Shown: positions 7,719 to 35,691 of the stretch, piece after piece
Layout of the letters: each line of letters opens with the position of its first letter
How positions within the stretch are numbered: the first letter of the stretch is position 1
Source: an uncultured Chloroflexia bacterium
GTDB lineage: Bacteria > Chloroflexota > Ktedonobacteria > Ktedonobacterales > Ktedonobacteraceae
DNA: 64,000 nucleotides
Reading direction: 5' to 3'
Assembly: GCA_963717105.1 (NCBI GenBank)
Contig: CAVQVL010000012.1
Span: 122,577 to 186,576, forward strand
Program-made: the position numbers and the translations under genes
Notes under the pieces: generated by a model
What the model was told of the DNA's origin: nothing
Database searches by the model: none
The model's input: only the letters and a program-made list of their open reading frames with translations

Positions 7719-7801
7719 GGGCGGTTGCTGAAATTGGTAGACAGGATAGACTTAGGATCTATTGGTGATGAACCGTGAGAGTTCGAGTCTCTCACCGCCC
7801 A
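7719..7801 (+). tRNA. tRNA-Leu (anticodon TAG)
   Basis: Acceptor stem GGGCGGT/ACCGCCC. Anticodon stem ATAGA/TCTAT with loop CTTAGGA. Long variable arm. T-arm GAGAG-TTCGAGT-CTCTC. Discriminator A. Confidence 0.9.
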
Positions 7802-20485: not shown

Positions 20486-21100
20486 ATGAAAAAATATGTA
20501 TTGATTGCCGATCCCCGCGCAGCGTTTCGCCAGGAACTACGCGCTATGTTTACCCGACCGCCAGAGGAAGAACAGATACTTGAAGCGGCAACATACCAGG
20601 AGTTGCTTGATCAGTTGGCAATGCACACCTTTGACTTTGTCTTTGTCAACCAGATGTTTGTCACGGATATCACGATACTTCCACGCGGCAAATTCATGAT
20701 ACTGGCTCCTCAACCAGATATGCTGATGGTATTTGCCGCCCGTACTCAGGGTGCATGTGCCTGTTTTCAGGAAAATGCCTCTGTTTCCTTGATACGGCAG
20801 GTAGCGGAGCTTCCCGTGGGAATATTTCTCACTGACCCGGTCGTTTCCGCTCACCTTGAGGACTACCTGGCTCATCACTTGCTTTTATCCATTGCTGATG
20901 AAGAACTGACCACCCGTGAACGTGAAATTTTTCGTCTTTTGTGGGGCGGGCAGAGTAAACAGAACATCGCGAAGCGGCTCCACATTTCCGAAAATACGGT
21001 GAAGGCGCATGTCAGAAGCATTTACAGCAAACTCAATTTGAATCGCTATCGCCTGAAAATACTTTCGATCCTCCATGATCCTGACACGAAAAACCAGTAA
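20486..21100 (+). CDS. LuxR-family transcription regulator with a degenerate (pseudo-)receiver domain
   Basis: C-terminal HTH LTTREREIFRLLWGGQSKQNIAKRLHISENTVKAHVRSIYSKL. The receiver-like N-terminus has N where the phospho-acceptor Asp is expected (FDFVFVNQ). Confidence 0.8.
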   Translation: MKKYVLIADPRAAFRQELRAMFTRPPEEEQILEAATYQELLDQLAMHTFDFVFVNQMFVTDITILPRGKFMILAPQPDMLMVFAARTQGACACFQENASVSLIRQVAELPVGIFLTDPVVSAHLEDYLAHHLLLSIADEELTTREREIFRLLWGGQSKQNIAKRLHISENTVKAHVRSIYSKLNLNRYRLKILSILHDPDTKNQ

Positions 21101-21268
21101 GTGGAAGAGAATATGCCGTCCTGACAGCAAAGAGCTTGTGGAAGAGTAGCAGAGTAATCATTTGGGCGATTGTCTTGCACAAAAAAACCAGGTATACTCT
21201 TTCTGGTTGATACAAGTACCCAAATGCTTTTTCTGCTTTCTAGAGTGACTGTCGGGAGGATAGCGAGC

Positions 21269-21853
21269 ATGTTGCCCTTTGCTGTCATTGCTATCCGTTT
21301 ATTTCTACGCCTTTTTGTTGGAGTGATATTGCTGAGCGTCAGTGTGAGCAAACTCGCTCATCTCCGCCAGTTCCAGCAAGGCATCCAGAATTACCAGGTC
21401 GTACCATCTCCACTGGCATCGAAGAGAGCATTCTCGATGGCACTGACTATCGCTATTCCTCTGGCTGAACTGCTGGCGGGTCTCGGATTGATTACTGGCT
21501 TCTGGCTGTTTCCTGCTGCTCTGCTGGCCGTAGCACTGTTTGTTGTGTTCTGTATTGCCATCACGATCAATCTCGTGCGCGGTCGCCGCGACCTCTCCTG
21601 TCATTGCGGAGGGGCCATCGGCAATCACCTGATTTCCTGGTGGCTCGTTGGACGCAATGGCTTGCTCATTGTGTGCCTGCTCGTCCTGCTGGTCACGCCA
21701 CCTGATACGTTCACTGTCGCCTCGTTTGTGCAGAGTCCGTCCCTGTTGAATCAGTTCTTCGTCAGTACGATCGTCCCTGTAGCCGTCCTGGTAGGAGCCG
21801 TCATCGCCGTCATTGCGCTGTTCAACGCTGCACAAGTTTTGTGGCGTTCGTGA
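21269..21853 (+). CDS. MauE/DoxX-family redox-associated membrane protein
   Basis: Start at ATG 21269 behind GGGAGGA. Four hydrophobic helices, N-terminal LRLFVGVILLSVSVSKLAHL and the CHCGG motif typical of MauE-like proteins. Confidence 0.65.
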   Translation: MLPFAVIAIRLFLRLFVGVILLSVSVSKLAHLRQFQQGIQNYQVVPSPLASKRAFSMALTIAIPLAELLAGLGLITGFWLFPAALLAVALFVVFCIAITINLVRGRRDLSCHCGGAIGNHLISWWLVGRNGLLIVCLLVLLVTPPDTFTVASFVQSPSLLNQFFVSTIVPVAVLVGAVIAVIALFNAAQVLWRS

Positions 21854-21882
21854 GCAAGCAGCCTTGAAAGAAGGAGTGAAGC

Positions 21883-22470
21883 ATGTTGACACTCTGGATT
21901 GTCGTCATTGTCCTCGGGGTACTCGAACTTTTTGAAACGGTGTTGCTGGTGTTGCTGCTGCGGGCGTTAGGAGAAATGCGACAACAGGGCATTAGCCCAT
22001 CAGCTAGCACTGTACACCATCAGGATATGGGCGGACTGGCTGTGGGTGAAAAGGCTCCTTCGTTTGTTGCCACGAATCAGGAAGGGAAGCTTGTCAGCCT
22101 TGAGGATTTTGAGGGGCAACGACGAATTCTCGCATTTATTTCACCTGGATGCCCCGCCTGTGCCAGCGCAATCAGTATTTTTAATGCGATACTGAAAGAC
22201 GGAGGAGATTTCACCATCTTAGTCATAGGGGGTCCAGATCGTGAGCTAAACCGTTCATATGCAGCGAAGCACAGGCTACAGGTACCTCTCTTGACGCCTC
22301 AATCAAATTTCGATCAGGAAGAGTATCTCGTACCAATGATACCATTTGTCTTTGTACTTGATGAAACAGGTATCATCCGTGCAAGAGGCCCTGTCATTGA
22401 TCGTCCACACATGCACAACTTACTGGCAACAATAACAGTACCAGCTACTCGTGAACACGCCCGTAGCTGA
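21883..22470 (+). CDS. Membrane-anchored TlpA/MauD-like thioredoxin-fold thiol-disulfide oxidoreductase
   Basis: N-terminal TM helix, then GEKAPSF...LAFISPGCPACASA (CxxC). Confidence 0.75.
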   Translation: MLTLWIVVIVLGVLELFETVLLVLLLRALGEMRQQGISPSASTVHHQDMGGLAVGEKAPSFVATNQEGKLVSLEDFEGQRRILAFISPGCPACASAISIFNAILKDGGDFTILVIGGPDRELNRSYAAKHRLQVPLLTPQSNFDQEEYLVPMIPFVFVLDETGIIRARGPVIDRPHMHNLLATITVPATREHARS

Positions 22471-22769
22471 ACGCTTCAAAGAAGAAAGAACGAGAGGTCA
22501 CGAAGAATGGAGAAAAAAATGACAAACAAACTGGATGGCGTTGGACAAGGATTGCAACCGGTGAATTCACGCCGCACCATCCTCAAATGGATCGGGCAAG
22601 TCGTGAGTGGCGCTTCATTGGCGGCCATTGCTATCGGTCTTGCGGACCCTGAGAATGCATTTGCAAAGCCTGACTGTTATCAGTGTCCTACAGGTTGTGT
22701 GATTGTCTATTGTAGTAGTGGCAATCCACCTTGCAATCCGAATGCCCGTTACTATTTAACCACGTATTA

Positions 22770-23838
22770 CTGACATCGGCAGAGGGAAGTAAAGTGTGAT
22801 ACACTAGGAGGTATGGGAGCACCAAGAAAAGCCGATTGGCGAGAAGAACGACGAAAACGAGCGTGGCAGTTGAAAGAAGAAGGCTGGCACCAACAAGATA
22901 TTGCCAAAGCATTGGGAGTGAGCGAGGGAGCCGTGAGCCAGTGGATGAAACGGGGGCGAGCAGGAGGAGTCGAAGCCCTCAAAGCGCATCCATCCCCGGG
23001 AGTGAGGCCAAAGCTGAGTGCCGAGCAGAAAGCGCAACTGCCCACATTGTTAGTGAAAGGAGCCGAAGCCTACGGGTTCCGTGGGGACGTCTGGACAGCC
23101 AGCCGTGTGGCGGAGGTCATTGACCGCACGTTTGGCGTGCGCTATCACCGCGACCATGTGGGGCGACTGTTGCGTGAAGCCGGCTGGAGTCGACAGAAAC
23201 CGGTGGAACGAGCCAGCCAGCGCAACGAAGAAGCCATCAAAGAGTGGTATGAAGAACGGTGGCCCGCCATAAAAAAAAAGCCGAACAGGAGCAAGCGACC
23301 ATCCTCTGGGTAGACGAAGCAGGCTTTTATCTGTTACCGATGGCCGTGCGTACCTGGGCACCAGCAGGACAGACGCCACTCCTGCGTGTCAAACTGACGC
23401 GGGATCATCTCTCGGCAATAAGTGGCATCACCCTGGATGGGAAACTCTTTATGCAAGTGCGTTCCGCGTCGTATGATGCTGAAGCGATCGTCGGCTTCCT
23501 TCGGGTTCTTTTACGCAAGCTTCCTGGCAAGATCGTCCTCATCTGGGATGGTGCGCCTATTCACCGCGCTGGCGAGATCAAGGCATTTCTCAAGCGCGGT
23601 GCAGCCAAGCGCTTGCATTTGGAGCAATTGCCCGGCTATGCGCCCGATCTCAATCCCGACGAGGGCATCTGGAATTATCTCAAGCGCGTCGAGTTGGGCA
23701 ATGTCTGCTGTTGCGACCTGGCTCACTTGAAGACGCAGCTTATTCGAGCCAGAGAACGCTTGCGCCACAAAACCGACATCATTACGAGTTGCTCTCGCCA
23801 ATGTGGCTACGCAGTTTAGCTCTTTATCACGAGGTCAG
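22770..23838 (+). mobile_element. IS630/Tc1-mariner family insertion sequence flanked by a TA target duplication
   Basis: Ends CTGACATCGG... and ...CGAGGTCAG form imperfect inverted repeats (about 19 of 29 positions match). TA at 22768-22769 and 23839-23840. Two-ORF DDE transposase inside. Confidence 0.8.
22813..23819 (+). CDS. IS630-family transposase, two overlapping frames joined at an A9 run (23271-23279), consistent with -1 frameshifting
   Basis: ORF1 has an HTH region (WHQQDIAKALGVSEGAVSQW). ORF2 has DDE signatures (ILWVDEAGF, LIWDGAPIH, LNPDEGIW). ORF2 is in the -1 frame relative to ORF1. Confidence 0.8.
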
Positions 23839-23967
23839 TATTATCTTGGCGGTTGTATACAACCTGGACAGCAATGTCCTATTAAATGTGCCAAAGACTA
23901 TTGCGGTACTGGATGCACTTCTTTTGAGTGTTGTGCTTGAATGCCGCTAATATCATTTTGTGATTTT

Positions 23968-24020
23968 TCTAAAGTATATATGATCTGAATACAAACACAT
24001 TCGATCATATGTACTTTAGA
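23968..24020. terminator. 18-bp-stem hairpin (1 mismatch, 17-nt loop) downstream of the reconstructed Cys-rich ORF
   Basis: TCTAAAGTATATATGATC (23968-23985) versus GATCATATGTACTTTAGA (24003-24020). Confidence 0.45.
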
Positions 24021-24042
24021 AGAGGAGATCATAAGAGCATCT

Positions 24043-25353
24043 ATGGACAACGAGCAACCTTCTACGCATCCCAACACTGGAGCTGGGCAGCCAAAAGATG
24101 CAAGATATATTCCCGGTGAGCAGTCATCTGCATCTTCCCCATTGCCACTGACATATCCAGAGCCATCCATCCCTACCCCCCCACGTAGGAAAGCAGGGTT
24201 GCTCTTCAACATTGGTATCGCGATGCTCCTGGTCATCGTCATCGTGGTTGCGCTCTCTCCTGTGCGTGATGCTATCCTCAATCATTTCATTGGCCCCACA
24301 CCTACGCCAACCGCTCTTATCACTCTTGGCGACAACCTCTTCTACATTCAAGCCATACCGAAAGGAAGTATCTTTATTGATGAGCGGCAAATCATGCATC
24401 TTCCGGTAATCGGGAAAGACCATCCCTTGCAACTTTCACCAGGCAAGCATCAAATTCGCTGGGAAGCCGCACCGTTCAAGCCACTCTCGTGTATCGTCTC
24501 GGTGCCATCATCACCGACGAACGACCAATGCCCATATGAGTCAGTCACGCCACTCACCCCTGCGGAAAATGTTCGTCTCGTGACTTTTGACCCCTCGATA
24601 GCCAATCTGCCCACGACACAACGGGCAACTCTGGTGCATCAAATCCAGCTCGCGCTCAATATGCTGCAATCTACTACGATCGTCCAGCCCGGCGAAGCGT
24701 ATCTCTCGACCTCATCTGCTGGTTTACCGGTGATGGTGACAACCACGCAACAGTTGAAAGCCACTCTCAGTTTTCATCTTGACACTGATCCGGCTGCGAA
24801 CAGGTCATGCGAAGAATATAATGAGACCTGCACTTCACCTGAGGGGCAGAACTGTGTATTATTATGTGTCCTCCCAGATACCACCTTTGTCCCCAATTCA
24901 CCGTCATCCCATTCCCAGCCCCGGGCCACATTAACCTGGGAGATTGTAGGCTTGTTCTATCCCACCTGGACCTATACCACCACAGGCGGGCAGGTCGTGG
25001 CAATAAATCAACCCGATGCATTACCTGATCGGGTCGTCGGAGAAGACCATAGCGTTCTCGCACATACTACGTGGGATAGTACAGGCTGGCATGCTATCAT
25101 CATCACACCAAATAGCGATTGGCACGCTACTTCAACGACAGATGGGTCTCCTACGAACTTTGGCTTTGCTGATCCTACTTGTGGCTCGCTGAATGACTTG
25201 ATTAATGGCACAACTACTTATTTAATTACACAGAGAGACGGGACAGTCAGCTGGAAGTTGAAAGCAGGCACAAATCATGCTGCCGGTTGTCTGGGTGTCG
25301 TTACCCCAGAACACAATATGCCTTTTGTTTATTTCTCTAGCGTTTTGGAGTGA
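24043..25353 (+). CDS. Hypothetical single-pass membrane protein (Pro-rich cytoplasmic N-terminus, ~370-aa extracytoplasmic domain)
   Basis: 436-aa ORF with RBS GAGGAG upstream and TM helix LLFNIGIAMLLVIVIVVAL. No recognisable motif. Confidence 0.5.
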   Translation: MDNEQPSTHPNTGAGQPKDARYIPGEQSSASSPLPLTYPEPSIPTPPRRKAGLLFNIGIAMLLVIVIVVALSPVRDAILNHFIGPTPTPTALITLGDNLFYIQAIPKGSIFIDERQIMHLPVIGKDHPLQLSPGKHQIRWEAAPFKPLSCIVSVPSSPTNDQCPYESVTPLTPAENVRLVTFDPSIANLPTTQRATLVHQIQLALNMLQSTTIVQPGEAYLSTSSAGLPVMVTTTQQLKATLSFHLDTDPAANRSCEEYNETCTSPEGQNCVLLCVLPDTTFVPNSPSSHSQPRATLTWEIVGLFYPTWTYTTTGGQVVAINQPDALPDRVVGEDHSVLAHTTWDSTGWHAIIITPNSDWHATSTTDGSPTNFGFADPTCGSLNDLINGTTTYLITQRDGTVSWKLKAGTNHAAGCLGVVTPEHNMPFVYFSSVLE

Positions 25354-25615: not shown

Positions 25616-28380
25616 ATGCTTCAATATGTTTTGCTCATGCTTCGTCGCCAACGAGGACGCAGTGTCCTGACCGGTGGCGGCTTTCTGCTTGCTGCCTGTG
25701 CTGTGATTTTATTAAGTGCCACCACCCAGACAACGGTCATCCAGGCCAGACAGATTATCAATAACAACTGGCGACCGAGCTATGATCTGGTTGTTCTTCC
25801 ATCACAGGCAAAGCTTCCTTCCGGGCAAACGGTTCCTGCCGATTTTCTGGAAGGATACAACGGGGGGATTAGCGTCCAGCAATATGAGCAGATCAAGTCT
25901 TTGCCAGATATCGCCGTTGCCGCGCCCATTGCCTTTCTCGGCTATGCCCTGTCACCTGTACCAGCACTCAACTTTGCTCCTCAGGCTCTGGCTCCAGGAT
26001 ACTATCGAGAAGATTTGACATTGACAGCTTTTAATGGGCATCAGCATATCATCGAGCGCCATGAAAGCCTTATCTACGGCATATTTGCGACCTGTGATAT
26101 TACCAGTGAAAGTGGCGCACGAGAAGCACTTATGCAGCAAAATGTTGAGGTAGGTTTCTGCGGTGTCGGGAGTACTGCGCCAACAGAATTTCCTTCGCTG
26201 GATGATGGAACCTTTCTGTTCGCGGCCATTGATCCTGCTGAAGAAGAGCAACTTCTGCATCTCAATCCCCAGGCCATCGAGGGGCGCATGCTCACCGAGC
26301 AAGATGGACTGACTTTAGCCAGAAAATTAACCGGAAATCTTGGGGATGAAATCTGACTATACGGTTCCAATGGTAATCAACCGTTCGCTGCCTGGCAATA
26401 TCGCGCTCAACGCGTCGTTGACACGCCTGGGTGGCCCGCTTGACCCGCAACAGGTGCTGGATAGTGGCGGCTATAGCTATTTAGTCCATCTTCCTCATCA
26501 GCAGACGCTGTTTCAAGGAAGCGTGCCACTGCTCCAAAATAACCCACAAGCCTTTTCCAGTGCTGACGTTAACATGGAATGGTCAAACGTGGCAGACTAA
26601 GAAGTATAGCTCCACTATAGGTGGGGGAAACAATCTGCTCTTTCTCTATACGCCTTCCGGTTTGAGCTACCAGTCAGTCGCAGCACCGGATGGACAGGTA
26701 GGATACACGCTTGTACCGAGCCAATCACAAAGTCCTGCATCCGTATTACAGTACGTTGCAGCTTGTTCCCCAGGAGAATACCAATCTTCCTTCCGACAAA
26801 CAGGGAGCAGAGGTCTATTTTCGTGATCTGCACGCCATGCACACGCTGACGGATACCTCTGACTCATCCAATAGTAGCGTCGAGTACTTTACGCATATCA
26901 TCGGGCAATTCGACGGGACAACATTATCAGCGCAGTTCAATAACGTGCTGAACTGGTTGCCGGAGAATACCTATGCTTCTCCACCTGCTGTGTTGCGCTA
27001 TGATGCTCAAGGACATCCTGTCACACCCACAACGCTGCTTCCCACCACCAATCCAGCCGGGTATCTCCTGCAACCACCGCTGGCCCTCACGACGTTGAAA
27101 GCAGCACAACAGATTGTGGGCAATCGTCTCATCAGTGTTATTCGCGTGCGTCTCAATGGCAATGTCACTCCTGATGAAGCGGGCTGGAAGCGCGTCTCAC
27201 AGGTCGCGCAAGAGATCTATCAAAAGCACAGGACTGCAGGTCTTTGTTACGCTGGGCTCATCTCCCGCACCTACGCTGGTCTATATTCCCGGCCTCAAGA
27301 AAGGCCAGGACGGCTCGACAAAAGATATTCCCCCGGTGGGTTGGGTGCAGGAACGCTGGATTGCGATTGGAGCAGGTATCGTCTATCTCAACCAGCTGGG
27401 AGAGACGCAACTGCTTGCTGCTGGGAGCGGTGTTGCTGGTCTGTCTGGGCTATTTAGCGGTGACCATGAGTTCGCTCGTCTCGGCCCAACGCCGCGAATT
27501 AGCGGTGCTGAGCGCATTGGGCTGGCGACCCTGGCACTCGGCAGGCATGTTCCTGGCGCAAGCCCTCGCCCTCTCATTGTGTGGAGGTGTGGTCGGCATT
27601 GGACTGGCATTACTGCTGGTCGCGCTGATCGGAGCCAGTCCCCGTGGCAAATCGTCGCCTGGACCATGCCAGGTGTGCTGGGGTTGGCCTTGCTCAGCGC
27701 CTTGTACCCCCTCTGGCAAATCTGGCGTATTCAGCCCGCCGAGGTCCTGCGAGCAGGCACGACGGTGGCGAAAGAAAGTACCACCTCGCGCCTCAATCGC
27801 TGGAACGCCTCGTTCTGGTCACGTTTGCCAGCCGTGGGCGGCATGGCCTTGCGCAATTTGACGCGCTCCCGCTTGCGAGCGGTGATCGCCATTGGCAGTC
27901 TGTTTCTCTCAGCAGTCCTCTTGACGGTGATGGTAGATGGCATTCTGGCGTTCCGGCAAACCTTGCAAGGGACGTTGCTCGGCGATTATGTCTTATTGCA
28001 AACGGCGGTGCCACAGATTGCGGGGGCGGTCTTTGCTGTCCTCTTGACCTTCCTGAGTGTGGCTGACCTGTTGTTATTGCAGGTGCGCGAACGCCAGAAG
28101 GAAATCGGCCTCTTACAGGCGGTGGGCTGGCGAGCGAAGATAGTGCAGCGCTTGTTTGTGCAGGAAGGCTTGATGCTGGCGGTGGTGGGTGCAGTGCCAG
28201 GGGTGCTGGTCGCGTTAGGTGTACTTGATGGCACGACATGCCGCACAGGGCGCCATACCCGCGCCACTGGTGGGACTAGGAGCGGTCGTCCTGATGCTCA
28301 TCGTGGCGTGGCTGGCGACGATTTCGGCAGTACGAGCGGTGAACCGCTTGCCCATGATGGATGTCTTGCGAGGGGAATGA
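25616..28380 (+). pseudogene. FtsX/MacB-type ABC transporter permease with a large extracytoplasmic domain, fragmented over at least 7 frame changes
   Basis: Colinear pieces in alternating frames: 25616-26356, 26340-26600, 26560-26826, 26711-27220, 27220-27420, 27420-27640, 27640-28200, 28200-28380. Two FtsX-like blocks (RRELAVLSALGWRPW; RQKEIGLLQAVGWRAKIVQRLF) and the typical ending NRLPMMDVLRGE. Confidence 0.7.
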
Positions 28381-28384
28381 TAGA

Positions 28385-29198
28385 ATGAAGGATAACATGG
28401 GACGTCGCACCAGGAAGGGGCCAAAGCGCGTGAGACTCAACAGCGAACACGATGAATCACTTGAACCATCTGAACAGCCGAAACAAGCAGAAGAACATGA
28501 GCAAGATGAGCAATCGGAACACGTTACTGATGAGCGTGAAACCATCTTGCGGGTGGAACACCTGGAGAAAGCATATGCCATTCCCGGCGGGCAATTGCAG
28601 GTGCTTGCATGATGTGAATTTAGCAGTGCAGCAAGGGGAGTTTGTGGCGATTACCGGGCCATCGGGGTCGGGCAAGACGACGTTGCTGGCGTTGTTGGGG
28701 GCGTTGGACACACCCGATAGCGGAGAAATCTGGCTGCACGATCAAGCGGTTCACAAACTGCGTGGCGTGGCTGCCGCCGATTTTCGCCGCGAGCAGGTGG
28801 GCTTTGTCTTCCAACTCTTCTACCTCTTGCCCAACCTGACGGCACTGGAAAACGTGATGGCCCCGTTGTTGCCCTATCGGCGCAAACTGGATTTTGATTT
28901 GAAGGAGCGGGCGAAAGAGTTGTTGGAGCGCGTCGGACTCGCGGAACGTATGGGCCATGCCCCGGCACGACTCTCTGGCGGCGAGCAGCAGCGCGTTGCC
29001 ATCGCTCGCTCCCTCATCAATCGTCCAAAGGTCTTGTTGGCGGACGAGCCGACGGGCAATCTGGACCCGCACACCGGCGTCGAGGTGCTGGATGTCTTGC
29101 GCGAGTTGCAACGGGCCGGCAGCCAGACGCTGATTATGGTCACCACGATCCCCAGGTGGCCGCTCTGGCCGATCGGCGCATTCACCTGGAACAGTTGA
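28385..29198 (+). pseudogene. MacB/LolD-type ABC transporter ATPase with an acidic N-terminal tail; frame broken near 28600 and near 29140; 3' end uncertain
   Basis: ILRVEHLEKAY (frame A), then GPSGSGKTT, LSGGEQQRVAIARSL and LLADEPTGNLD (frame B). After TLIMVT the expected HDPQVAALADRRIHL is found in a third frame. Confidence 0.7.
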
Positions 29199-33665: not shown

Positions 33666-35343
33666 ATGAGCATTTTCACCTTCTCAGGGATACGAATGCG
33701 CATCCTGCTCTCGTGTCTCGCCATCGCCACCGTCTTCGGTGCATTCCTGTTCAGCCACGCCTTTTTTCAAACAGCATCAGCCGCATCCGCCGCCGGTGCC
33801 AGTACAGGGCCGTTTACCGTCACGAAAAGTGTGATTTCGCCAGCTGCGGTAGTCGATCCAACAAAACTTTCCCTGTCAAATGAACCAGGCTCTACCCTGC
33901 CAAAGGGAGCCCGTCCGAATTCATCCGCAGGGTAACGGGGGTAATGCAAGCAACATAGCCGCACCGTCGTCGGCGCTCGCGAATGCACCGGCGGGTGCTT
34001 TGCTCGCGAATTTCAATGGCGTCAGCAGCCGCAACAGCGCGAAGGCGAATTTCGGAGCGGAATTTGAGCCGCCCGATCAAGGTCTCTGCGTTGGCAATGG
34101 TTTCGTGGTTGAGCCGGTAAATTCCGCGTATACCATTTACAACACAAAGGGGCAGGTGCTGGCCGGACCATTCAACGTCAACAAGCTCTATGACGAAGGG
34201 TACAAAAAGTTCACGAGCGATCCACGGTGTTTTTATGACAAAACAACGAATACCTGGTTCGCCATTATTCTGTTCATTAGCTCCAACAATCAGGTAGGAC
34301 GCACGGACCTTGCCGTGAATCCGACAGGAGATCCAACGAAACCCTGGACGGTCTATCATATTGACGGCACCGACCCGGGTGCTCCTGGTTGTCCTTGCTT
34401 TGGCGATCAGCCTCTGCTTGGCATTGACCAGTACAACATCTATATCAGCACCAACGAATTCTCAATCCTCGGCCCACAGTTCAATGGTGCGCAAATTTAT
34501 GCCCTCTCCAAGTCGCAGCTCGTCTCGCTGTCCTCGTCGGTCAACGTCGTTCATTTCGGCAATTTGAGCATTGGCGGCAGCATAGCCACATCTGTTCAAC
34601 CGGCTCTAACGTTTGGCACAGCGGATGCCGAGTACTTTATGAACTCGCTCGATCCGTTCGGGACGTTTGATCAGCGTATCGGCGTCTGGGCCATGACCGA
34701 CCGCCAGGAAGTTAGCAAAGGCGGCATTCCCACATTATCGCGCAAGGTCATTACAAGCGAGGCATACGGGGTACCGCCGAAGGCAGAGCAGATGGGCGCG
34801 AAAAGCCTGCTGGATTCCGGTGATGATCGTATGCAGCAGGTGCAGTTCATCAATGGTGACCTCTGGGGTGCGCTTGATACAGCCGTGACCATTCCGCACG
34901 ATAGCACTACTCGTGCAGGTATCGCATGGTTCCGCGTACAGCCATCGCTTGACGGCAAGGTTATTGGAAACACGGTCATCAAGCAGCAGGGTTATGTCGC
35001 GCTCCTCGGCAACTACTTGCTTTATCCCGCCATCCAGGCCAGCCCGGAGGGTACTGCCGCCATTGTGATGACGCTCTCCAGTAAGACAAACTTCCCCAGT
35101 GCCGCCTATACGTTCAAGAGCGCGAATAGTTCGTCATTCGGAGACATTTTCGTCGCCGCCCCCGGCTACGGAAACTACGATCCCACCGCGACTCGCTGGG
35201 GCGATTATTCGTGGGCCGTCCTCGATCCTTCCGGTAAGAGCTTCTGGATGGCAACGGAATATATTCCACCCCTGAGTAGCCAGACCAAAGACAGGAAGGC
35301 CAACTGGGGTACCCGCGTTCTCTCCGTCAGCGTCGAGAATTAG
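33666..35343 (+). CDS. Secreted hypothetical protein, frame broken between 33880 and 33935
   Basis: The signal peptide ORF (MSIFTFSGIRMRILLSCLAIATVFGAFLFSHAFFQTASA) runs into a 487-aa ORF in another frame. No recognisable catalytic motif. Confidence 0.55.
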
Positions 35344-35614: not shown

Positions 35615-35691
35615 CGGGGTGTAGCGCAGTCGGCTAGCGCGCAGCGTTCGGGACGCTGAGGTCGGAGGTTCAAGTCCTCTCACCCCGACCA
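35615..35691 (+). tRNA. tRNA-Pro (anticodon CGG), CCA encoded
   Basis: Acceptor CGGGGTG/CACCCCG. Anticodon stem CAGCG/CGCTG with loop TTCGGGA. T-loop GGAGGTTCAAGTCCTCT. 3' ACCA. Confidence 0.9.

What the first reader, a model, noticed from the sequence alone, without database searches (positions are those of the whole stretch)
22507..23940. IS630 insertion splits a Tat-signal, 12-cysteine small secreted protein gene; the intact ORF can be rebuilt
The 88-codon ORF 22507-22773 ends with a TGA that belongs to the IS. Removing the element (22770-23838) and one copy of the duplicated TA restores an open frame that runs 32 further codons to TGA 23938-23940. A hairpin follows at 23968-24020. The rebuilt 120-aa product has a near-consensus twin-arginine motif (N-S-R-R-T-I-L-K), an AFA cleavage-like site, and a ~67-aa mature part. 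That mature part carries 12 Cys (CYQC, GC, YC, PC, GGC, QC, KC, YC, GC, ECC). I recognise no family. The frame continuity across the junction independently supports the IS boundaries.
Basis: partly seen in the sequence, partly recalled or inferred. Interest (0 to 1): 0.75.

Follow-up and report, generated by a model that had tools for sequence, protein, structure and literature searches.

The report
IS630-split secreted six-disulfide protein gene
A jumping gene has recently cut in two a small gene for an exported protein held together by six disulfide bonds; the gene belongs to an unannotated soil-bacterial family that always sits behind its own pair of disulfide-forming enzymes (MauE and a MauD-like protein).

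Summary
A 1069-bp IS630-family element (22770-23838, flanked by a duplicated TA) interrupts a small gene. Removing it restores a 120-codon ORF. Two uninterrupted alleles exist in public assemblies: P0003 (87% identical) and P0002 (57-60% identical). Both span the junction, and all 12 cysteines align. The related contig L002 shows the empty target site.

The gene lies directly downstream of mauE (a DsbB-like disulfide generator with a CXC motif) and a membrane-anchored MauD-like thioredoxin (CPAC). I found about 40 sequence clusters of this family, nearly all from metagenomes and all unnamed. None matches Pfam, NCBIfam, or PDB by sequence or by predicted fold.

Twelve loci were inspected. Every one has the MauD-like gene immediately upstream, and all 8 that reach far enough also have mauE. 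All 37 aligned members have an invariant RR Tat-like leader, which is more conserved than the core. All 37 have an even number of cysteines (8-14) in the mature part.

Best reading: a Tat-targeted, fully disulfide-bonded secreted mini-protein oxidised by a dedicated MauE/MauD pair. This parallels maturation of the methylamine dehydrogenase small subunit, but the protein is not homologous to it. This copy is dead. The final function is unknown; a secreted antimicrobial or signal peptide is a guess.

The parts
20486..21100 (+). LuxR/GerE-type regulator with a degenerate receiver-like N-terminus. The same gene precedes the module in L003, L004, L009 and L011.
   Evidence: PF00196 GerE 1e-15; synteny.
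21170..21853 (+). mauE homologue, a DsbB-like membrane disulfide generator. The likely true start is Met34 at 21269. It carries an invariant RGRxDL[SA]CHC[GA]G loop (CXC motif).
   Evidence: PF07291 MauE 1.1e-22, 81 bits against a cutoff of 27. CHC is invariant in 6 loci. The role of the CXC motif is taken from bioRxiv 10.64898/2026.03.05.709764.
21883..22470 (+). MauD-like thioredoxin-fold protein, membrane-anchored at its N-terminus, with a CPAC active-site motif.
   Evidence: AhpC-TSA 6.5e-12 and Redoxin 1.8e-10. Best NCBIfam hit is TIGR02661 MauD at 7e-15, but 55 bits against a cutoff of 188.6. PGC[PS][AF]C is invariant in 8 loci.
22507..22769 (+). 5' fragment of the small gene: the first 87 codons plus the first two bases of codon 88. 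It encodes the Tat-like leader (SRRTILKW, h-region, AFA) and 5 of the 12 Cys.
22768..22769 (.). Left copy of the duplicated TA target.
   Evidence: empty site in L002.
22770..23838 (+). IS630-family insertion sequence, 1069 bp, with imperfect terminal inverted repeats (CTGACMTCG...). It is the only copy in the window.
22813..23313 (+). Transposase ORF1 (HTH part). It matches IS630 profile positions 1-137 of 299.
   Evidence: NF033545 1.5e-30; HTH_33 and HTH_32.
23271..23279 (+). A9 run where ORF1 and ORF2 overlap (ORF2 is in the -1 frame). Adding one A gives one continuous 335-aa DDE transposase.
   Evidence: The two profile matches abut at positions 136/137.
23259..23819 (+). Transposase ORF2 (DDE_3 catalytic part). 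It matches IS630 profile positions 136-294 of 299.
   Evidence: DDE_3 1.9e-26; NF033545 6.1e-30.
23839..23840 (.). Right copy of the duplicated TA target.
23841..23940 (+). 3' fragment of the small gene: the last base of codon 88, then 32 codons with 7 Cys, then TGA.
   Evidence: dN/dS is 0.2 against L002.
23956..24036 (+). Long AT-rich stem-loop directly after the small gene, with no U-tract. It overlaps the RBS of the next gene. A hairpin is also found at this position in L002 (same sequence family) and in L001 (unrelated sequence, 26-bp stem).
   Evidence: z = -7.1, -5.3 and -4.9. The simple scan did not call it a terminator.
24043..25353 (+). 436-aa membrane-anchored protein with no known domain. 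It is conserved downstream of the small gene in L001, L002 and L011.
   Evidence: No Pfam or NCBIfam hit. 81% identical to L002 and 40% to the 450-aa protein of L011.
25616..28377 (+). FtsX-type ABC permease gene, about 920-940 aa when intact in relatives. Here it is broken by at least 5 frame changes, so it is a probable pseudogene.
   Evidence: tblastn with the L003 and L004 permeases gives pieces in frames 2, 3, 1, 2, 3, 1. FtsX 3.8e-20 for the intact L004 protein.
28434..29195 (+). ABC transporter ATPase, intact.
   Evidence: PF00005 6.3e-36.

Best explanation
Shown. An IS630-family element inserted at a TA inside a small gene. The insertion truncates the product to 88 aa with 5 Cys. The intact gene encodes a 120-aa precursor with three parts: a twin-arginine-type signal peptide, an AxA signal-peptidase site, and a roughly 67-aa mature domain with 12 Cys.

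Inferred. The precursor is exported, most likely by Tat, and its leader is cleaved after AFA. Its 12 Cys are then paired into six disulfides by the two proteins encoded just upstream. The membrane-anchored MauD-like thioredoxin (CPAC) would act like DsbA and oxidise the substrate directly. MauE (CXC loop) would act like DsbB and re-oxidise MauD at the expense of the quinone pool. The product would be a compact three-stranded beta-sheet mini-protein stapled by disulfides.

Guess. The core is hypervariable on a fixed Cys scaffold, a LuxR-type regulator lies upstream, and an FtsX/ABC transporter often lies downstream. Together these point to a secreted effector, such as an antimicrobial or signalling peptide, with its own export or immunity pump.

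In this genome the system is dead or dying: the substrate gene is split and the permease gene is frameshifted. The insertion is recent, because neither fragment carries a further stop or frameshift and both still show purifying-selection signatures against the L002 allele.

The confidence of 0.7 refers to the model as a whole (a dedicated MauE/MauD client that is exported and fully disulfide-bonded). The IS insertion and the gene reconstruction alone I put at about 0.97, and the antimicrobial or signal role at about 0.25.
For: IS and reconstruction; intact alleles P0003 and P0002; empty site in L002.

Family: 40 representatives at E<1e-3 among 1.84 billion proteins; 37 were aligned.

Gene order: a MauD-like gene lies immediately upstream of the small gene in the window and in L001-L011, i.e. 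12 of 12 loci. mauE lies upstream of that in all 8 loci long enough to show it. Outer flanks differ between loci, so the three-gene module is the conserved unit.

Redox motifs: the CXC of MauE and the CxxC of the MauD-like protein are invariant. MauE replaces DsbB in E. coli and needs its CXC to do so (bioRxiv 10.64898/2026.03.05.709764).

Cysteine parity: the mature parts have 8, 10, 12 or 14 Cys, so 37 of 37 are even. Leaders have none, apart from 4 over-extended N-terminal gene calls.

Leader: RR is invariant, and 37 of 37 match [STPG]RRx-hydrophobic-hydrophobic. The best PDB sequence hit of the family profile is the Tat signal of FdnG (E = 0.022). Most of the weak family-library hits are to Tat-signal models: TIGR02811 in 8 members, TIGR01409 in 4, PF10518 in 2, PF10399 in 3.

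Conservation: leader 54% mean pairwise identity, core 33.5%, and 22% for the core without Cys. dN/dS against L002 is 0.06 for the leader and 0.29 for the core.

Structure: the AF2 model of the core has mean pLDDT 86 and three long strands.

Transporter: an FtsX permease lies downstream in the window, L003, L004, L009, L010 and L011.
Against: No experiment supports export route, cleavage, disulfide formation or activity.

The window's own leader does not reach any Tat HMM threshold, and only a minority of family members give weak hits.

The MauD-like protein scores far below the MauD equivalog cutoff (55 against 188.6 bits).

A crude positive-inside count puts the CXC loop of MauE and the thioredoxin domain on the K/R-rich face of the membrane, which is normally the cytoplasmic side. 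That conflicts with simple extracytoplasmic oxidation.

An even Cys count is also compatible with some metal sites.

Nothing links the family to an antimicrobial or signalling role except analogy.

The FtsX/ABC genes are absent downstream in L005 and L008.
Confidence: 0.7

Rival explanations
1. The mature domain is a cofactor- or metal-binding Tat cargo (an Fe-S or Cu/Zn thiolate cluster). It is loaded and folded in the cytoplasm, which is why it carries a Tat signal. The Cys are ligands, not disulfides.
For: The start of the core, C-x2-C-x3-C (CYQCPTGC), aligns with the FS0 cluster motif that follows the Tat signal of FdnG. Tat normally carries folded, cofactor-loaded proteins (established knowledge). 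Cys content is very high at 12 of 67 residues.
Against: The third Cys of that motif is not conserved across the family. No Fe-S, metallothionein or copper-protein family is matched at E<=10. The obligatory partners are a disulfide-generating pair, not a cluster-assembly or chaperone gene. The strict even parity of a variable Cys number (8-14) fits pairing better than a fixed metal site.
Confidence: 0.08
2. It is a RiPP-type precursor. The conserved 'Tat-like' leader is mainly a recognition sequence for tailoring enzymes, and the core receives modifications beyond disulfides. This would resemble the mauE-containing candidate RiPP clusters that decRiPPter predicted in Streptomyces.
For: The leader is much more conserved than the core, as in RiPPs. 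decRiPPter reported three Streptomyces candidate families with mauE (one also with mauD) next to precursors with at least 8 Cys (PMC7794033). A stable hairpin follows the precursor gene. An ABC transporter lies nearby.
Against: No other conserved enzyme gene accompanies the module; the flanks vary. The Streptomyces precursors have no RR leader and no detectable similarity to this family (under 8 bits, composition-biased). A core of about 67 aa with a confidently predicted fold is a small protein rather than a typical RiPP core.
Confidence: 0.1
3. It is a divergent small (light) subunit of a methylamine or other amine dehydrogenase (MauA-like), carrying a Cys/Trp-derived quinone cofactor.
For: MauA is likewise a small Tat-signal protein with 12 Cys that needs MauE and MauD. 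The need for MauE and MauD and the six disulfides are cited; the Tat signal and the Cys count of MauA are from my own knowledge. The gene order mauE-mauD-small gene mirrors mauEDA.
Against: There is no hit to PF02975 or any other family and no PDB sequence hit for the core at E<=10. The predicted fold matches no PDB entry, so not an MADH light chain either; best E is 2.8. The mature part has no Trp here and in 28 of 37 members, so TTQ is impossible. No large-subunit, mauG or amicyanin genes occur in any locus.
Confidence: 0.02
4. The 88-aa ORF is the natural gene, and the open frame after the element is a coincidence.
For: An 88-aa protein identical to the ORF is in the NCBI-derived collection (P0001). 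Thirty-two open codons happen by chance about one time in five (my estimate).
Against: P0001 is this same interrupted copy. Every other family member is 100-130 aa long and aligns through the C-terminal 32 residues, including 7 Cys. The empty site is seen in L002. The 88-aa form has an odd Cys count, whereas 37 of 37 relatives are even.
Confidence: 0.01

Closest known systems
MauE/MauD-dependent maturation of the methylamine dehydrogenase small subunit MauA (mau cluster of Paracoccus and Methylobacterium)
   Same: The gene order is mauE, mauD-like, then a small protein gene. The substrate has a twin-arginine-type leader and 12 Cys (six disulfides in MauA). MauE has the CXC motif and the MauD-like protein has CxxC.
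   Different: The substrate is not homologous to MauA: there is no PF02975 hit and no fold match. It is half the size, usually lacks Trp (so it cannot carry TTQ), and has no large subunit, MauG or amicyanin genes nearby. The thioredoxin partner falls far below the MauD equivalog cutoff. The hosts are Chloroflexota-type soil bacteria; only L003 carries an organism name.
MauE as a general DsbB-like disulfide generator (bioRxiv 10.64898/2026.03.05.709764)
   Same: A MauE family member above the Pfam cutoff with an invariant CXC loop between TM3 and TM4, paired with a thioredoxin-fold partner.
   Different: Here MauE is not a housekeeping generalist. It is genetically tied to one small substrate gene in every locus examined. 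Its CXC loop lies on the K/R-rich side in a crude count, and this is unresolved.
decRiPPter candidate RiPP families with mauE (and mauD) next to precursors with at least 8 Cys in Streptomyces (PMC7794033)
   Same: A MauE (with or without MauD) gene lies next to a short, Cys-rich, even-Cys precursor. Both are purely bioinformatic, with function unknown.
   Different: There is no detectable sequence similarity. The Streptomyces precursors are about 57-66 aa with a non-RR leader. This family is about 105-125 aa with an invariant RR leader, and its core is predicted to be a folded three-stranded sheet.
IS630 family insertion sequences (Tc1/mariner superfamily)
   Same: About 1.07 kb long, with a DDE_3 transposase matching NF033545, a TA target duplication and terminal inverted repeats.
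   Different: The transposase is read from two frames that overlap at an A9 run. This is either programmed slippage or a 1-nt deletion. The inverted repeats are poorly matched beyond the first 9 bases.

Membership tests
IS630 family insertion sequence | DDE transposase of the IS630 type | tested here: met
   NF033545 at 106.7 and 104.7 bits (cutoff 100) for the two ORFs, covering profile positions 1-137 and 136-294 of 299. DDE_3 at 1.9e-26.
IS630 family insertion sequence | Duplication of a TA target dinucleotide | tested here: met
   TA at 22768-22769 and 23839-23840. The empty site in L002 has a single TA in TATTATTATC.
IS630 family insertion sequence | Terminal inverted repeats and a length of about 1.0-1.4 kb | tested here: met
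   1069 bp. The ends are CTGACATCG and CTGACCTCG (8 of the first 9 bases match) with patchy matches further in. No second copy was available to confirm the ends independently.
Twin-arginine (Tat) signal peptide | S/T-R-R-x-F-L-K-type motif, then a mildly hydrophobic h-region and an AxA site | tested here: met
   The window has SRRTILKW, IGQVVSGASLAAIAIGL and AFA. RR is invariant, and the motif is present in 37 of 37 members.
Twin-arginine (Tat) signal peptide | Match to curated Tat-signal profiles (TIGR01409, PF10518) | tested here: inconclusive
   The window copy has no hit at E<=1. Across the family only weak hits appear: TIGR02811 in 8 of 37, TIGR01409 in 4 of 37, PF10518 in 2 of 37. The family profile hits the FdnG Tat signal at E = 0.022.
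Twin-arginine (Tat) signal peptide | Export depends on TatABC and on the RR pair | not testable with these tools
   Needs RR-to-KK and tat mutants. TatP and SignalP are not available here.
Methylamine dehydrogenase light chain (MauA, PF02975) | Sequence or fold similarity to the MADH light chain | tested here: not met
   No Pfam hit at E<=10 in any of the 37 members. No PDB sequence hit for the core. Foldseek best E is 1.7-2.8 with TM at most 0.36, and none of the hits is MADH.
Methylamine dehydrogenase light chain (MauA, PF02975) | Two Trp that form tryptophan tryptophylquinone, with mauB and mauG partners | tested here: not met
   There is no Trp in the mature part of the window protein or of 28 of 37 members. 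No such genes occur in any locus.
MauE (PF07291), DsbB-like disulfide generator | Profile match above the curated cutoff, with a CXC motif in the TM3-TM4 loop | tested here: met
   81.1 bits against a cutoff of 27. CHC is invariant in 6 loci. The active-site role comes from the preprint.
MauD (TIGR02661 equivalog) | Score above the equivalog cutoff | tested here: not met
   55 bits against a cutoff of 188.6. It is still the best NCBIfam hit, and it covers positions 16-178 of 189 including the N-terminal anchor. It is therefore called 'MauD-like'. The thioredoxin fold and CxxC are present.
decRiPPter MauE-associated Cys-rich precursors (Streptomyces) | Sequence relatedness of the precursor | tested here: not met
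   The family HMMs score under 8 bits against the three published precursors, with equal composition bias. Only the genomic logic is shared.

The most novel reading that the evidence does not exclude
The disulfides may be made on the cytoplasmic face before export. In these MauE proteins the CXC loop carries 8-11 K/R together with loop 1, against 0-2 K/R on the other face. In the MauD-like partner the only K/R near its anchor lie just after the TM, which puts its thioredoxin domain on the same face. If that face is the cytoplasm, the MauE/MauD pair would pre-fold a six-disulfide cargo inside the cell. The twin-arginine leader would then be needed because only Tat moves folded proteins. The same logic would explain why MauA, the classical MauE/MauD client, is also a Tat substrate. 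It would amount to a natural, dedicated pathway that folds a protein oxidatively in the cytoplasm and then exports it by Tat.
Probability: 0.1. Interest if true: 0.85.

Novelty: new variant of a known kind. Interest (0 to 1): 0.45.

Why it matters
The IS insertion itself is routine. The gene it hit is more informative. It identifies an unannotated family of Tat-leader mini-proteins whose cysteines always come in even numbers, each with a private DsbB-like/DsbA-like pair.

MauE was shown only in 2026 to be a disulfide generator, and its natural clients outside methylamine dehydrogenase are unknown. This family offers a second, much simpler client: about 65 residues, no cofactor and no partner subunit. 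It could be used to study how MauE and MauD work. It could also address the old question of how a protein can be both Tat-targeted and disulfide-rich.

The predicted fold has no match in the PDB. The hypervariable core on a fixed Cys scaffold is the pattern seen in secreted toxins and signals, so the family may also be a source of new stable bioactive peptides from Ktedonobacteria-like soil bacteria.

Tried and rejected
1. Pfam and NCBIfam scans of the rebuilt protein and of all 37 members gave no family for the core. Two members hit TIGR04117 (Cys-Xaa-Xaa-Xaa repeat); I take this as a composition effect.

2. PDB sequence searches. The whole-protein profile hit only the FdnG Tat signal. The core profile hit nothing at E<=10.

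3. Two AF2 models were searched against the PDB with Foldseek. Nothing scored below E = 1.7. Foldseek is weak on small disulfide-rich folds, so this is absence of evidence only.

4. The genome-contig scan with the two-sequence alignment found nothing. A 7-sequence alignment found one Chloroflexia MAG. The metagenome scan found one locus. The source genome itself was not found, so I could not name the organism. Ktedonobacteria is my inference from the sequence style and from the L003 title.

5. Exact look-ups of P0001 and of transposase ORF1 found no record, so there is no second IS copy and no same-species empty site.

6. There is no paralogue of the small gene elsewhere in the window. The weak hit at 34090 lies inside an unrelated 496-codon open frame, 33853-35340.

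7. The consensus terminator scan does not call the hairpin a terminator, because it has no T-run.

8. Rfam finds only two tRNAs in the window.

9. Literature searches for MauE plus cysteine-rich peptides, and for Ktedonobacter plus twin-arginine, found nothing on this family.

10. The MauA, metal-cluster and 'natural 88-aa gene' readings were rejected, as set out under the rival explanations.
Full report
**1. The observation**

ORF 22507-22773 has 88 codons. Its last sense codon is TAC, whose C is the first base of the inserted element, and its TGA stop is element bases 2-4.

The element runs from 22770 to 23838 (1069 bp). It is flanked by TA at 22768-22769 and 23839-23840. Its ends are CTGACATCG... 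and, for the reverse complement of the right end, CTGACCTCG....

It encodes two overlapping ORFs, 22813-23313 and 23259-23819. Each exceeds the NCBIfam IS630 cutoff (NF033545: 106.7 and 104.7 bits, cutoff 100), and they match contiguous halves of that profile (positions 1-137 and 136-294 of 299). The second ORF carries DDE_3. The two frames meet at an A9 run (23271-23279), and adding one A gives a continuous 335-aa transposase.

Joining 22507-22769 to 23841-23940 gives a 120-codon ORF ending at TGA 23938-23940. Its product is:

MEKKMTNKLDGVGQGLQPVNSRRTILKWIGQVVSGASLAAIAIGLADPENAFA|KPDCYQCPTGCVIVYCSSGNPPCNPNARYYLTTYYYLGGCIQPGQQCPIKCAKDYCGTGCTSFECCA

All 12 Cys lie after the AFA site.

**2. Is the reconstruction real?**

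Thirty-two open codons would occur by chance about one time in five (my estimate), so frame continuity alone proves little. Homology is decisive.

- A search of 5.8 billion protein clusters returned the truncated 88-aa form itself (P0001) and an uninterrupted 110-aa relative (P0002, 57-60% identical) covering 97% of the rebuilt protein.
- The cluster of P0001 also holds P0003, an uninterrupted 115-aa allele that is 87% identical and reads ...LTSYYYLGGCIQPGQTC... straight across the junction.
- The contig that encodes P0003 (L002) is 84% identical to the IS-less window over 2.35 kb and has the same gene order. At the insertion point it reads TATTATTATCTTGG, which is the empty site with one TA. 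Neither L001 nor L002 contains the IS.

Against the L002 allele, dN/dS is 0.06 for the leader, 0.29 for the core and 0.2 for the fragment beyond the IS (small numbers). Neither fragment has a further stop or frameshift. The insertion is thus recent relative to the split from the L002 lineage.

**3. What the gene sits in**

- 21170-21853 is a MauE family protein (PF07291, 81 bits, cutoff 27).
- 21883-22470 is a thioredoxin-fold protein with an N-terminal membrane anchor (AhpC-TSA and Redoxin). Its best NCBIfam hit is MauD (TIGR02661, 7e-15), but at 55 bits against a cutoff of 188.6, so I call it MauD-like rather than MauD.
- Upstream of these lies a LuxR/GerE-type regulator (20486-21100).
- Downstream lie a 436-aa membrane-anchored protein with no known domain (24043-25353), an FtsX-type permease gene and an ABC ATPase (28434-29195).

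In this window the permease gene (25616-28377) is split over frames 2, 3, 1, 2, 3, 1 relative to the intact 923- and 938-aa proteins of L003 and L004. The frame changes are not at long homopolymers, and most other stretches of the window carry long open frames. I therefore read it as a pseudogene, although local assembly error cannot be excluded.

**4. The family**

A profile search of 1.84 billion representative proteins found 40 proteins at E<1e-3, almost all 100-130 aa long. A word-indexed search showed that they come from Logan, ENA and JGI metagenome assemblies. The only names given are 'hypothetical protein', and the only NCBI entry is the truncated P0001. One GTDB representative genome, a Chloroflexia MAG (L003), and one JGI metagenome contig (L004) were recovered by pattern scans.

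In the 37-sequence alignment:
- RR, one Gly of the h-region and four Cys are invariant. Trp28, Ser37, Ala39, Ala53 (position -1 of the cleavage site) and four more Cys are nearly so.
- All 37 members match [STPG]-R-R-x-hydrophobic-hydrophobic.
- The leader (S21-A53) averages 54% pairwise identity. The core averages 33.5%, and 22% once Cys columns are removed.

The most telling number is cysteine parity. The mature parts have 8, 10, 12 or 14 Cys, so 37 of 37 are even. The true leaders have none. If parity were random, this would happen with probability about 2^-37. The sequences are related, so that figure overstates the case, but the Cys number does vary across the family and still stays even. 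The IS-truncated product has 5 Cys.

**5. The module is conserved; the flanks are not**

I inspected 12 loci: the window and L001-L011.
- In all 12 the gene immediately upstream of the small gene is the MauD-like thioredoxin.
- In all 8 loci that extend far enough, mauE precedes it: the window, L003, L004, L005, L007, L008, L009 and L011.
- The RGRxDL[SA]CHC[GA]G loop of MauE and the PGC[PS][AF]C motif of the thioredoxin are invariant.
- The LuxR-type gene recurs in the window, L003, L004, L009 and L011.
- An FtsX permease lies downstream in the window, L003, L004, L009, L010 and L011, but not in L005 or L008.
- L011 has two small genes.
- A long stem-loop directly follows the small gene in the window (z = -7.1), in L002 (z = -5.3) and in L001 (z = -4.9). 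The L001 stem has an unrelated sequence. None has a U-tract, and the terminator scan does not call it.

**6. Mechanism**

A 2026 preprint shows that MauE proteins from two phyla replace DsbB in E. coli in two assays. They need their CXC motif to do so, and about 8% of MauE entries are fused to thioredoxin-fold domains. The authors propose that MauD plays the DsbA role (bioRxiv 10.64898/2026.03.05.709764).

Combining that with the invariant gene order, the invariant redox motifs and the strict even-Cys rule, the best-supported model has three steps:
- The precursor is exported through its twin-arginine-type leader.
- The leader is cleaved after AxA.
- The core is fully oxidised (six disulfides here) by the MauD-like protein, which MauE re-oxidises.

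The steps actually shown are the gene structure, the family, the synteny and the motifs. Export route, cleavage, oxidation and partner specificity are inferred.

AF2 predicts the core confidently from only 37 sequences (mean pLDDT 86) as three long antiparallel strands.

What the mature protein does is not known. The conserved leader with a hypervariable core on a fixed Cys scaffold, the regulator, the post-gene hairpin and the frequent FtsX/ABC pair resemble bacteriocin or signal-peptide loci. I rate that reading at about one in four.

**7. Comparison with what is known**

*MauA.* The closest functional analogue is maturation of the methylamine dehydrogenase small subunit, which needs MauE and MauD and has six disulfides. 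That MauA carries a Tat-type signal is from my own knowledge. Membership fails on every test:
- no PF02975 hit in any member;
- no PDB sequence hit for the core;
- no fold match;
- no Trp in the mature part of 28 of 37 members, so TTQ cannot form;
- no mauB or mauG genes in any locus.

*decRiPPter candidates.* decRiPPter reported three Streptomyces candidate RiPP families with mauE (one also with mauD) and precursors with at least 8 Cys (PMC7794033). The genomic logic is the same. However, those precursors have no RR leader and no detectable similarity to this family.

*Tat signal.* The leader meets the motif definition. Curated Tat HMMs give only weak hits in a minority of members, and the family profile's best PDB hit is the FdnG Tat signal (E = 0.022).

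*IS630.* The element meets all the IS630 criteria that I could test.

**8. Unresolved point and novel reading**

A crude hydropathy and K/R count places MauE loop 1 and the CXC loop (8-11 K/R) on one face, with 0-2 K/R on the other. The MauD-like domain falls on the same K/R-rich face. By the positive-inside rule that face would be the cytoplasm. This contradicts the periplasmic placement reported for other MauEs.

My method is too crude to overturn that report. If it held, though, oxidation would precede export, which would explain the Tat leader. I give this reading about 10%.

**9. Verdict**

The IS event itself is ordinary. The interest lies in the disrupted gene: it is a member of an unannotated family of small proteins with Tat-type leaders and even cysteine counts. 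The family has a dedicated MauE/MauD-like oxidation module and a predicted fold without a PDB match. I rate it a new variant of a known kind (MauE/MauD client proteins). The copy in this window is inactivated, and its associated permease gene is probably decayed as well.

Noticed in passing
window 25616-28377: The FtsX-type ABC permease gene downstream of the small gene is split over at least six frame segments relative to the intact 923- and 938-aa orthologues in L003 and L004. The breaks are not at long homopolymers. It is probably a pseudogene, so the locus is decaying beyond the IS hit; a local assembly error is the alternative.
   Followed up: partly
window 23271-23279: An A9 run lies exactly where the two IS630 transposase ORFs overlap (ORF2 is in the -1 frame), and the two halves match contiguous profile positions. 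This is either programmed ribosomal or transcriptional slippage, or a recent 1-nt deletion. No second copy was available to decide.
   Followed up: partly
window 23956-24036; L002 1125-1181; L001 1010-1088: A long, very stable stem-loop without a U-tract follows the small gene in three loci. The L001 stem has an unrelated sequence, so position rather than sequence is conserved. In the window it overlaps the RBS of the next gene. It may be a transcript-stabilising or attenuating element.
   Followed up: partly
window 21170-22470 and homologues in L003, L004, L008: The K/R distribution puts the MauE CXC loop and the MauD-like thioredoxin domain on the positively charged face of the membrane. This is at odds with the periplasmic placement published for other MauE proteins.
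   Followed up: partly
L011 2453-2812 and 4646-5155: One metagenome locus carries two small genes of the family (12 and 14 Cys). The N-terminus of the second gene call looks like the 3' end of a mauE gene, which suggests a rearranged or partly deleted second cassette.
   Followed up: no
L001 and L002 (both from run ERR14790938): Two different versions of the MauD-like / small gene / ~400-aa gene block occur in one sequencing run. One is 84% and the other 69% identical in DNA to the window. They are either two related organisms or two paralogous cassettes in one genome.
   Followed up: no
window 24043-25353: A 436-aa protein with an N-terminal membrane anchor and no Pfam or NCBIfam match is conserved next to the small gene in L001, L002 and L011 (40-81% identity). 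Its function is unknown.
   Followed up: partly
window 7719-7801 and 35615-35688: Two tRNA genes are the only Rfam matches in the window.
   Followed up: no
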